64,000 nt of DNA from Eledone cirrhosa (lineage: Eukaryota). Made by a program: the position numbers and the translations under genes. Shown in pieces: positions 1,753 through 2,068 of the stretch (position 1 is its first letter; each line of letters begins with the position of its first letter). A model generated the notes under the pieces. The model did not search any database and was not told the DNA's origin. It saw only the letters and a program-made list of their open reading frames with translations. The stretch covers positions 289,230,001 through 289,294,000 of the forward strand of contig OZ024740.1 in assembly GCA_964016885.1 (NCBI GenBank). The letters run 5' to 3'.

Positions 1753-1856
1753 TGTCCCGATAACTTAATTTAGTTATCGCTCGCACTGATTTTAGGTATC
1801 TAGTCTTTAATGCGAAGAAATACCAATGATAATCAGCAGGCTACTGATGAAGGACA
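1753..1856 (+). ncRNA. Multi-helix hammerhead-like RNA with non-standard topology, copy 1
   Basis: TGTCC/GGACA, CGATAACT/AGTTATCG, TCGCA/TGCGA, CTGATT/AATCAG, GGTAT/ATACC, TAGTCT/AGGCTA. Core CTGATGA 1844-1850, GAAA 1817-1820, AUC site 1798-1800. Confidence 0.6.
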
Positions 1857-1870
1857 TTCTTGTTTCTCGG

Positions 1871-1933
<63 letters not shown>

Positions 1934-1964
1934 TACTTGTCCCCCTCGCTTTACGCGAATTACT

Positions 1965-2068
1965 GGTCCCAATAATTTTTTTTAGTTATTGCTCGCACCA
2001 ACCTGAGGTATCTGATTTTTAATGCGATGAAATACCAATGATGGTTGGAAAATCACTGACGAAGGACT
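1965..2068 (+). ncRNA. Multi-helix hammerhead-like RNA with non-standard topology, copy 2
   Basis: Same spacing as copy 1 (offset 212) with compensatory stems GGTCC/GGACT, CAATAATT/AGTTATTG, CCAACC/GGTTGG, TGATTT/AAATCA. Core CTGACGA 2056-2062, GAAA 2029-2032. Confidence 0.6.

What the first reader, a model, noticed from the sequence alone, without database searches (positions are those of the whole stretch)
1753..2068. Covarying six-helix RNA with a complete hammerhead core in a scrambled, non-circularly-permuted order
Seen: two diverged copies (1753-1856 and 1965-2068, identical spacing, separated by a TA tract) keep six helices. Two differ extensively but compensatorily (CTGATT/AATCAG to CCAACC/GGTTGG; TAGTCT/AGGCTA to TGATTT/AAATCA), and a hairpin swaps G-C for A-U. 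Invariant are CUGAYGA, GAAA and GGUAUC/AUACC. These form hammerhead stem III, an AUC cleavage site (after 1800 or 2012) and stem I directly abutting CUGAYGA. The 5'-3' order is cleavage strand, then GAAA, then CUGAYGA, and stem II is replaced by a three-helix junction. Copy 2 also has a kink-turn-like CUGA/AAUGAU loop next to stem III. Established: natural hammerheads are classed as circular permutations I, II and III, and PLEs carry hammerheads in their terminal repeats. Inference: a knotted hammerhead topology, a dimer-folding ribozyme, or an upstream switch that sequesters the stem I strand of a conventional hammerhead further 3'.
Basis: partly seen in the sequence, partly recalled or inferred. 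Interest (0 to 1): 0.85.

Follow-up and report, generated by a model that had tools for sequence, protein, structure and literature searches.

The report
Rearranged hammerhead ribozyme in Penelope-like elements
Two neighbouring copies of young repeat families carry every catalytic base of a hammerhead ribozyme in a scrambled order, in a fold also seen at the ends of Naiad retrotransposons of several animal groups, so this is likely the self-cutting RNA those elements were reported to lack, although cutting is predicted and untested.

Summary
Observation confirmed. Both 104-nt copies form all proposed helices (34-35 of 35 pairs), with cleavage triplet AUC at 1800/2012, in the order cleavage strand-GAAA-CUGAYGA. 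That order is published (type SGC, Eckert 2023), but only from metatranscriptomes. What is new is the form and the host. The 5' strand of stem II does not follow CUGAYGA; it lies at the 5' end and is tied to the core by an extra helix plus hairpin (four-way junction), which the published search model excluded. The copies are separate (TA)n insertions of two non-coding families with 530-570-nt units (over 2,500 genomic copies) and Penelope-type tandem and inverted structure. The same fold with unrelated sequence occurs in metagenome contigs, once directly behind a Naiad-type reverse transcriptase. By eye it is also in 7 published Naiad consensus ends; 5 more are SGC and 6 nematode ones are CSG. 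Naiads were reported to lack canonical hammerheads. Truncated copies pile up just 3' of the predicted cut (5 of 88; 13 of 32 in another family), but not in family B. No conventional downstream hammerhead (0 of 232). Cleavage and expression are untested, and no intact Naiad was found here.

The parts
1753..1856 (+). SGC-order hammerhead, family A copy: X 1753-57/1852-56; hairpin Y 1758-64/1773-79; stem II 1781-85/1811-15; stem I-II tie helix 1786-91/1831-36; stem III 1795-99/1820-24; stem I 1801-06/1838-43; GAAA 1817-20; CUGAUGA 1844-50
1800..1801 (+). Predicted cleavage site of copy 1 (AUC, after C1800)
   Evidence: analogy to the hammerhead core; 5' ends of truncated family A copies enriched at 0..+3
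1965..2068 (+). SGC-order hammerhead, family B copy; same helices offset by 212; CUGACGA 2056-62; all 35 pairs intact
2012..2013 (+). Predicted cleavage site of copy 2 (AUC, after C2012)
2004..2042 (+). Kink-turn-like internal loop (UGA 2004-06 against AAUGAU 2037-42) joining stem III to the tie helix; copy 1 has UUA 1792-94 against 1825-30
   Evidence: sequence; among 152 instances UGA/GAU 65, UUA/GAU 53, GGA/GAA 13; k-turn consensus recalled
1283..1877 (+). Family A non-coding element, direct part: partial tandem starting about 17 nt after the previous predicted cut, one ~550-nt unit, short tail ending at TA
1158..1282 (-). Inverted 5'-truncated family A segment (GAAA and CUGAUGA blocks plus tail) beginning 2 nt after the predicted cut
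1878..1925 (.). (TA)n tract, the insertion target between the two elements
1926..2129 (+). Family B non-coding element, 5'-truncated, ending at a TA tract

Best explanation
Each copy holds a complete hammerhead core in S-G-C order near the 3' end of a non-coding, (TA)n-inserting repeat, and is likely a self-cleaving ribozyme of non-autonomous Penelope-like elements probably derived from Naiads. Shown: the core bases, six helices, covariation, copy structure, and the same fold directly behind a Naiad-type RT. Predicted fold: stem III plus the tie helix make a hairpin whose ~20-nt loop pairs with the 5' flank (stem II) and the 3' flank (stem I); helix X joins both flanks and, with hairpin Y, makes a four-way junction between A9 and stem II. 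In these families a k-turn-like loop would bend the tie helix back. Inferred cycle: read-through RNA of tandem copies would be cut after each AUC into ~530-570-nt units. Uncut or religated (circular) units would be reverse-transcribed in trans by a PLE RT/endonuclease at (TA)n, giving partial tandems. Cut linear RNA would give copies that stop just 3' of the site.
For: Descriptor specificity and covariation. Helix table with unrelated sequences: 15 of 19 representatives parse fully, and family F plus 6 metagenome loci have a flush X-Y-II junction (slack 0-1) with G10.1-C11.1. H17 is C or A, G in only 3 of 217. Type SGC ribozymes cleave in vitro at the analogous site (PMC10085705). Copy numbers 1,579, 2,519, 408, 156, reverse controls 0. 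Partial tandems, inverted 5' parts and TA targets match PLE structure. L413: an 81-codon ORF end runs into the motif and is identical to the end of P0002, a 504-aa RT with Naiad-type motifs and no C-terminal nuclease. Naiad consensus ends read by eye. 5' ends at 0..+3 in 5 of 88 family A anchors against 1.04 expected, P=0.004; 13 of 32 at 0..+6 in a coral-type family.
Against: No cleavage assay, and splitting block C is untested biochemically; Eckert assumed it cannot be interrupted. Families A-E have lost G10.1-C11.1, and in A/C/D/E the replacing pair is mismatched in 46 of 85, including copy 1. The family B 5'-end excess at 0..+3 is absent (1 of 85 against 0.62). The pile-up sits mostly at +3..+6 and is inflated because the search pattern required TTAA there. 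Most copies read through the site. No intact Naiad ORF was found here: 29 of the 30 best matches hold stops, and remnant 3' ends show at most a decayed core. So Naiad origin of A/B rests on shared fold and short motifs, and the mobilising enzyme is unknown. 24 of 46 Naiad ends showed no such motif in the part seen. The nested skeleton (-17 kcal/mol) is weaker than the pseudoknot-free MFE (-22 to -26).
Confidence: 0.75

Rival explanations
1. The ribozyme works only as a dimer: two tandem units or two molecules swap strands, so the monomer drawing is not the active fold.
For: Tandem pairs and triples are common. The tie helix must span from the far end of stem III to the far ends of stems I and II, a strain also noted for SGC. 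Some animal retrozyme hammerheads cleave better as dimers (PMC7229834).
Against: No palindromic stem. Most insertions hold one complete motif. Published SGC ribozymes cleave as single-motif transcripts. A tandem gives no conventional order (2 of 232 complementary).
Confidence: 0.1
2. The fold descends from a ribozyme but in families A-E is catalytically weak or dead, and is kept as the structure recognised by the RT or as a stabilising element.
For: Loss of G10.1-C11.1 and frequent mismatch at that position. Most copies read through the site. No 0..+3 excess in family B. No intact Naiad partner.
Against: The core is intact in 148 of 152 instances, stems covary between young families, H17 avoids G, and family A 5' ends are enriched at the site. 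Natural PLE hammerheads with a mismatch at 10.1/11.1 are listed in the Craig supplement.
Confidence: 0.12
3. An upstream switch that sequesters stem I of a conventional hammerhead further 3', or a box C/D snoRNA-like element.
For: Window copy 2 has a GAAA downstream; AUGAU and CUGA resemble C/D boxes, with weak sub-threshold snoRNA hits.
Against: That GAAA is not shared by most family B copies. Only 11 of 232 cores have one and 0 form a C-G-S fold. Rfam scores are 13-22 bits against gathering scores of 36-65.
Confidence: 0.03

Closest known systems
Type-SGC hammerhead ribozymes (HRIMA-1 and SGC variants; Eckert et al. 2023, PMC10085705)
   Same: Block order S-G-C, all core bases, a short linker from stem I to stem II, an extra helix tying stems I and II whose far end connects to stem III.
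   Different: There CUGAnGA runs straight into stem II and the tie strand at the 3' end. Here those strands lie 5' of the cleavage strand and are spliced in by helix X and hairpin Y (four-way junction, split block C). Theirs come from metatranscriptomes and none from a known genome; these are thousands of copies in an animal genome.
Naiad Penelope-like elements (Craig et al. 2021, PMC8557442)
   Same: (TA)n target, partial tandems, inverted 5' copies, short tail; the same RNA fold in Naiad 3' ends, including two Octopus families with the same hairpin loop and AUGAU.
   Different: The window elements encode no protein, and no intact Naiad was found in this genome. The paper reports Naiads as lacking canonical hammerheads and marks only 'core' or 'half core'.
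Metazoan non-LTR retrozymes (Cervera and de la Pena 2020, PMC7229834; Li et al. 2026 preprint)
   Same: Non-coding, low-GC, tandem units with one hammerhead each; proposed circular RNA intermediate; proposed PLE origin.
   Different: Those use type I hammerheads and ~300-nt units, from dimers to large arrays; these use a permuted core, 530-570-nt units and mostly 1-3 copies per site. Circles are not shown here.
Canonical minimal type I hammerheads of Neptune/Penelope PLEs
   Same: Located in the 3' UTR/pLTR about 100 nt from the element end.
   Different: Order C-G-S; a family with a C-terminal nuclease in this genome (L112-L117) carries that form.

Membership tests
Hammerhead ribozyme | CUGANGA, GAAA, U16.1-H17 core | tested here: met
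   H17 C or A in 213 of 217
Hammerhead ribozyme | Stems I, II, III abutting the core, with covariation | tested here: met
   stem II joined to A9 through a junction rather than directly
Hammerhead ribozyme | Site-specific self-cleavage | not testable with these tools
   only indirect 5'-end clustering
Types I-III (circular permutations) | Order CGS, GSC or SCG; Rfam model match | tested here: not met
   order is SGC; no hammerhead model among Rfam hits to E 5 or 10
Type SGC (Eckert 2023) | Block order S-G-C with short stem I-stem II linker and tie helix | tested here: met
   against text
Type SGC (Eckert 2023) | Uninterrupted block C (CUGAnGA directly followed by the stem II strand) | tested here: not met
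   strand after A9 complementary to strand before GAAA in 2 of 232; hence a variant
Penelope-like element | Partial tandem, inverted 5' copy, 5' truncation, microsatellite target | tested here: met
Naiad | ORF with N-terminal GIY-YIG and C-terminal RT | tested here: not met
   no ORF in the units; non-autonomous at best
Naiad | Descent of families A/B from a Naiad 3' end | tested here: inconclusive
   same fold behind a Naiad-type RT (L413) and in published Naiads; own-genome remnants too decayed
Non-LTR retrozyme | Expressed linear and circular unit-length RNA | not testable with these tools
   no RNA holder listed
Kink-turn | 3-nt bulge followed by tandem G-A/A-G pairs | tested here: inconclusive
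   pattern present in B-E, 2n position is U in A, absent in F and most homologues; fold untested

The most novel reading that the evidence does not exclude
Naiad retrotransposons across animal phyla do carry hammerheads, hidden as non-circular permutations: a split-core SGC form with a four-way junction (ctenophore, cnidarians, acanthocephalan, crustacean, cephalopods) and a CSG form (nematodes). This would make the rearranged hammerhead a common animal genomic ribozyme, show that the CUGAUGA-stem II link can be opened, and remove the main argument that PLEs do not need their ribozymes.
Probability: 0.65. Interest if true: 0.88.

Novelty: new variant of a known kind. Interest (0 to 1): 0.78.

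Why it matters
Craig et al. used the apparent absence of hammerheads in Naiads to suggest that hammerheads may be dispensable or parasitic for Penelope-like elements. If Naiads kept the ribozyme by rearranging it, cleavage is more likely part of the PLE cycle, and Naiads give direct test constructs. Non-circular RNA permutations were known only from metatranscriptomes and metagenomes, with 2 CSG sequences in all. Here are thousands of genomic SGC copies and, by eye, six covarying CSG examples. A junction inserted between A9 and stem II breaks the three-block rule used to enumerate hammerhead forms, so current searches miss a class.

Tried and rejected
Rfam: no hammerhead or other family near gathering score. 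Conventional downstream hammerhead: 0 of 232. A tandem duplication origin of the two copies: rejected, they belong to different families. The abundant RT family beside L065 as partner: it has a C-terminal nuclease and its own C-G-S hammerhead. Exact degenerate Naiad peptide patterns in the genome: 0 and 0 hits; with 2 mismatches 1 hit against 1 control hit, which proved a Naiad remnant. Protein searches from a 46-aa remnant gave nothing useful. Expression: no RNA holder listed; the run guessed to be RNA covered only the CT-rich part; neither is evidence. Earlier scan findings: none. Pfam found no family in 4 of 4 proteins, including the 1002-aa PLE ORF. In one search, 4 of 19 representatives did not parse fully (L068, L432, L340, L329). 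In one search, 121 of 135 metagenome pattern hits lacked stems I and III; many are truncated family copies, the rest chance.

Full report
1. Observation. The copies at 1753-1856 and 1965-2068 align without gaps at 78 of 104 positions. The order is X5'-hairpin Y-stem II 5'-tie helix 5'-stem III-AUC-stem I-UUAA-stem II 3'-GAAA-stem III-AAUGAU-tie helix 3'-stem I-CUGAYGA-X3'. All 35 pairs are standard in copy 2 and 34 in copy 1. A descriptor for this topology finds only these two sites in the window and none in 50 shuffles. It finds 92 cores in 74 of 173 loci then held, none in 10 shuffles or in reversed loci. Rfam has no matching family.

2. What carries it. The genome holds at least 1,579 exact matches to a core pattern, 2,519 to a family B anchor, 182 to a family A anchor, 408 to a pattern dominated by family F and 156 to one dominated by the old family G; all reverse controls were 0. 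Units are about 530-570 nt, pyrimidine-rich and without a protein ORF. Copies are 5'-truncated, end in (TA)n, and often form partial tandems or carry an inverted 5' piece, the structure described for Penelope-like elements. In the window, family A gives an inverted piece (1158-1282) and a direct partial tandem (1283-1877); family B inserted separately into the TA tract (1926-2129). Median identity to the window motif is 96% (86 A instances) and 94% (57 B instances) (samples partly chosen by similarity). A Naiad remnant resembling the published Octopus Naiads suggests an octopod (inference).

3. Covariation. I picked 15 diverse rows from families A-E by hand out of 116 instances. 96% of cells pair and 12 of 35 pairs change on both sides (X 2, Y 2, tie helix 5, stem I 2, junction pair 1); no shuffle of 500 reaches this, and slid partners pair 26-54%. 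Rows are related, so this is not a probability, and stems II and III show no double change in this set. Wider families supply it. Family H changes a stem III pair. Family F and six metagenome loci keep every helix with unrelated sequence, a flush X-Y-II junction and a G-C pair closing stem II against G12 (15 of 19 representatives parsed fully). The metagenome scan gave 123 loci from about a sixth of the collection; 14 of 135 pattern hits had stems I and III, 7 of them also stem II and X.

4. The fold. Eckert et al. 2023 (PMC10085705; parts 1-6 of 8 read; supplement passages) describe type SGC: cleavage block, GAAA block, CUGAnGA block, a short linker from stem I to stem II and a helix tying stems I and II, all shown to be needed for cleavage. 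Their RNAs came from metatranscriptomes, none from a known genome apart from one GCS candidate, and they assumed that CUGAnGA and its stem II strand cannot be separated. Here they are: the strand after A9 is complementary to the strand before GAAA in only 2 of 232 cores. Stem II and the tie strand lie at the 5' end and are held by helix X and hairpin Y. So this works like SGC but fails one defining feature. Families A-E add one base on each side of the junction; these pair in B (67 of 67) but mismatch in 46 of 85 A/C/D/E instances, including copy 1. The UGA/AAUGAU loop fits the k-turn consensus as I recall it in B-E, less well in A, and is not general.

5. The Naiad link. Craig et al. 2021 (PMC8557442; passages) state that Naiads lack canonical hammerheads, prefer (TA)n, and in some cases have only a 'core' or 'half core'. 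I read by eye the last ~330 nt of 46 Naiad consensus records in their supplement (the file was cut when stored, names assigned by file order). Seven show the window's full architecture (Amil, Aacu, Anas, Plae, EuTe, Obim, Ovul). Five show SGC order with helpers partly seen or rearranged (Bfor, 3_Chem, 2_Movir, Esco, Ptep). Six nematode records show a clean CSG form (1/2/3_Nbra, Hcon, Hpol, Asuum). Four have GAAA before the core but an unresolved fold, and 24 showed none in the part seen. These were not computed. One computed link exists: in L413 an ORF ends at the motif and is identical to the end of P0002, a 504-aa RT with Naiad-type motifs and no C-terminal nuclease. Against: this genome's Naiad matches are decayed (29 of the 30 best of 87 hold stops), and their 3' ends show at most a decayed GAAA...CUGAGGA (L173) or nothing clear (10 loci). 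The enzyme that moved the young families is therefore unknown. An abundant intact PLE family with a C-terminal nuclease also inserts at TA and has a canonical hammerhead; it is a candidate only.

6. Imprint of cleavage. If RNA is cut after C17, some cDNAs should stop there. With anchors 3' of the core, 5 of 88 family A 5' ends fall at 0..+3 against 1.04 expected (P=0.004), but only 1 of 85 in family B against 0.62. End rates just 3' against just 5' of the site are 19/3213 against 6/2606 (A) and 12/3196 against 2/2886 (B) (100-place listings sampled in part, 80 and 70 loci). In a coral-type metagenome family, 13 of 32 informative copies end at 0..+6, 3 at -8..-1, 3 at -50..-9 and 13 beyond; the pattern's TTAA inflates the +5/+6 class, and junction microhomology with TA may contribute. 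This is suggestive, not proof. That most copies run through the site, sometimes for 2-3 units, fits uncut or religated circular templates, as shown for type I retrozymes (PMC7229834, passages). A 2026 preprint derives retrozymes from PLE pLTRs without mention of permuted forms (abstract and passages; its supplements were not seen).

7. Rivals. The upstream-switch idea fails (11 of 232 cores have a downstream GAAA, 0 a conventional fold). Dimer dependence and a catalytically decayed relic remain possible. Pseudoknot-free folding prefers alternatives by 5-9 kcal/mol over the nested skeleton alone, so folding may be slow or assisted.

8. Novelty. Nine full-text searches found no paper placing SGC or CSG hammerheads in animal genomes or Naiads. 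The library lacks most subscription papers, and Repbase and Dfam could not be checked. PMC13725137 (passages) only cites Eckert. Verdict: a real feature, a new variant of a known ribozyme class in a new host, with a plausible answer to why Naiads seemed to lack hammerheads. Cleavage remains to be shown.

Noticed in passing
Craig 2021 supplement, 3' ends of Naiad-1/2/3_Nbra, Hcon, Hpol, Asuum: Six nematode Naiads carry a clean type-CSG hammerhead with covarying stems I-III and tie helix; only two natural CSG sequences were published. Read by eye.
   Followed up: partly
Craig 2021 supplement: Several bivalve Naiads share another conserved 3' motif without CUGANGA; Naiad-1_Movir has a twister-like stretch; several Naiad 5' ends look HDV-like (likeness recalled, not tested).
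   Followed up: no
L112-L117 (e.g. L113 2166-5420): Very abundant PLE family with ~1000-aa ORF, C-terminal GIY-YIG-like region and a canonical minimal C-G-S hammerhead about 200 nt after the stop; inserts at TA.
   Followed up: partly
window 37000-38210: Long AT-rich inverted repeat (282-nt core, 99% complementary) around a short stretch that reads by eye as a PLE RT thumb fragment.
   Followed up: no
window 16900-28000: 42-bp satellite of about 260 copies, ~94% alike, with long open frames on the minus strand.
   Followed up: no
window 209-422, 3861-4067, 5990-6593, 8343-9280: Copies of a ~200-nt dispersed repeat (SINE-like), some in head-to-tail arrays.
   Followed up: no
L149-L167; L163 minus strand near 380-420: An old family G (65-80% pairwise identity) and a single family H copy with the same SGC core; H changes a stem III pair compensatorily.
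   Followed up: partly
window 2012: In run X2 most family B depth reads A instead of C at the cleavage base, a change the hammerhead rule tolerates.
   Followed up: no
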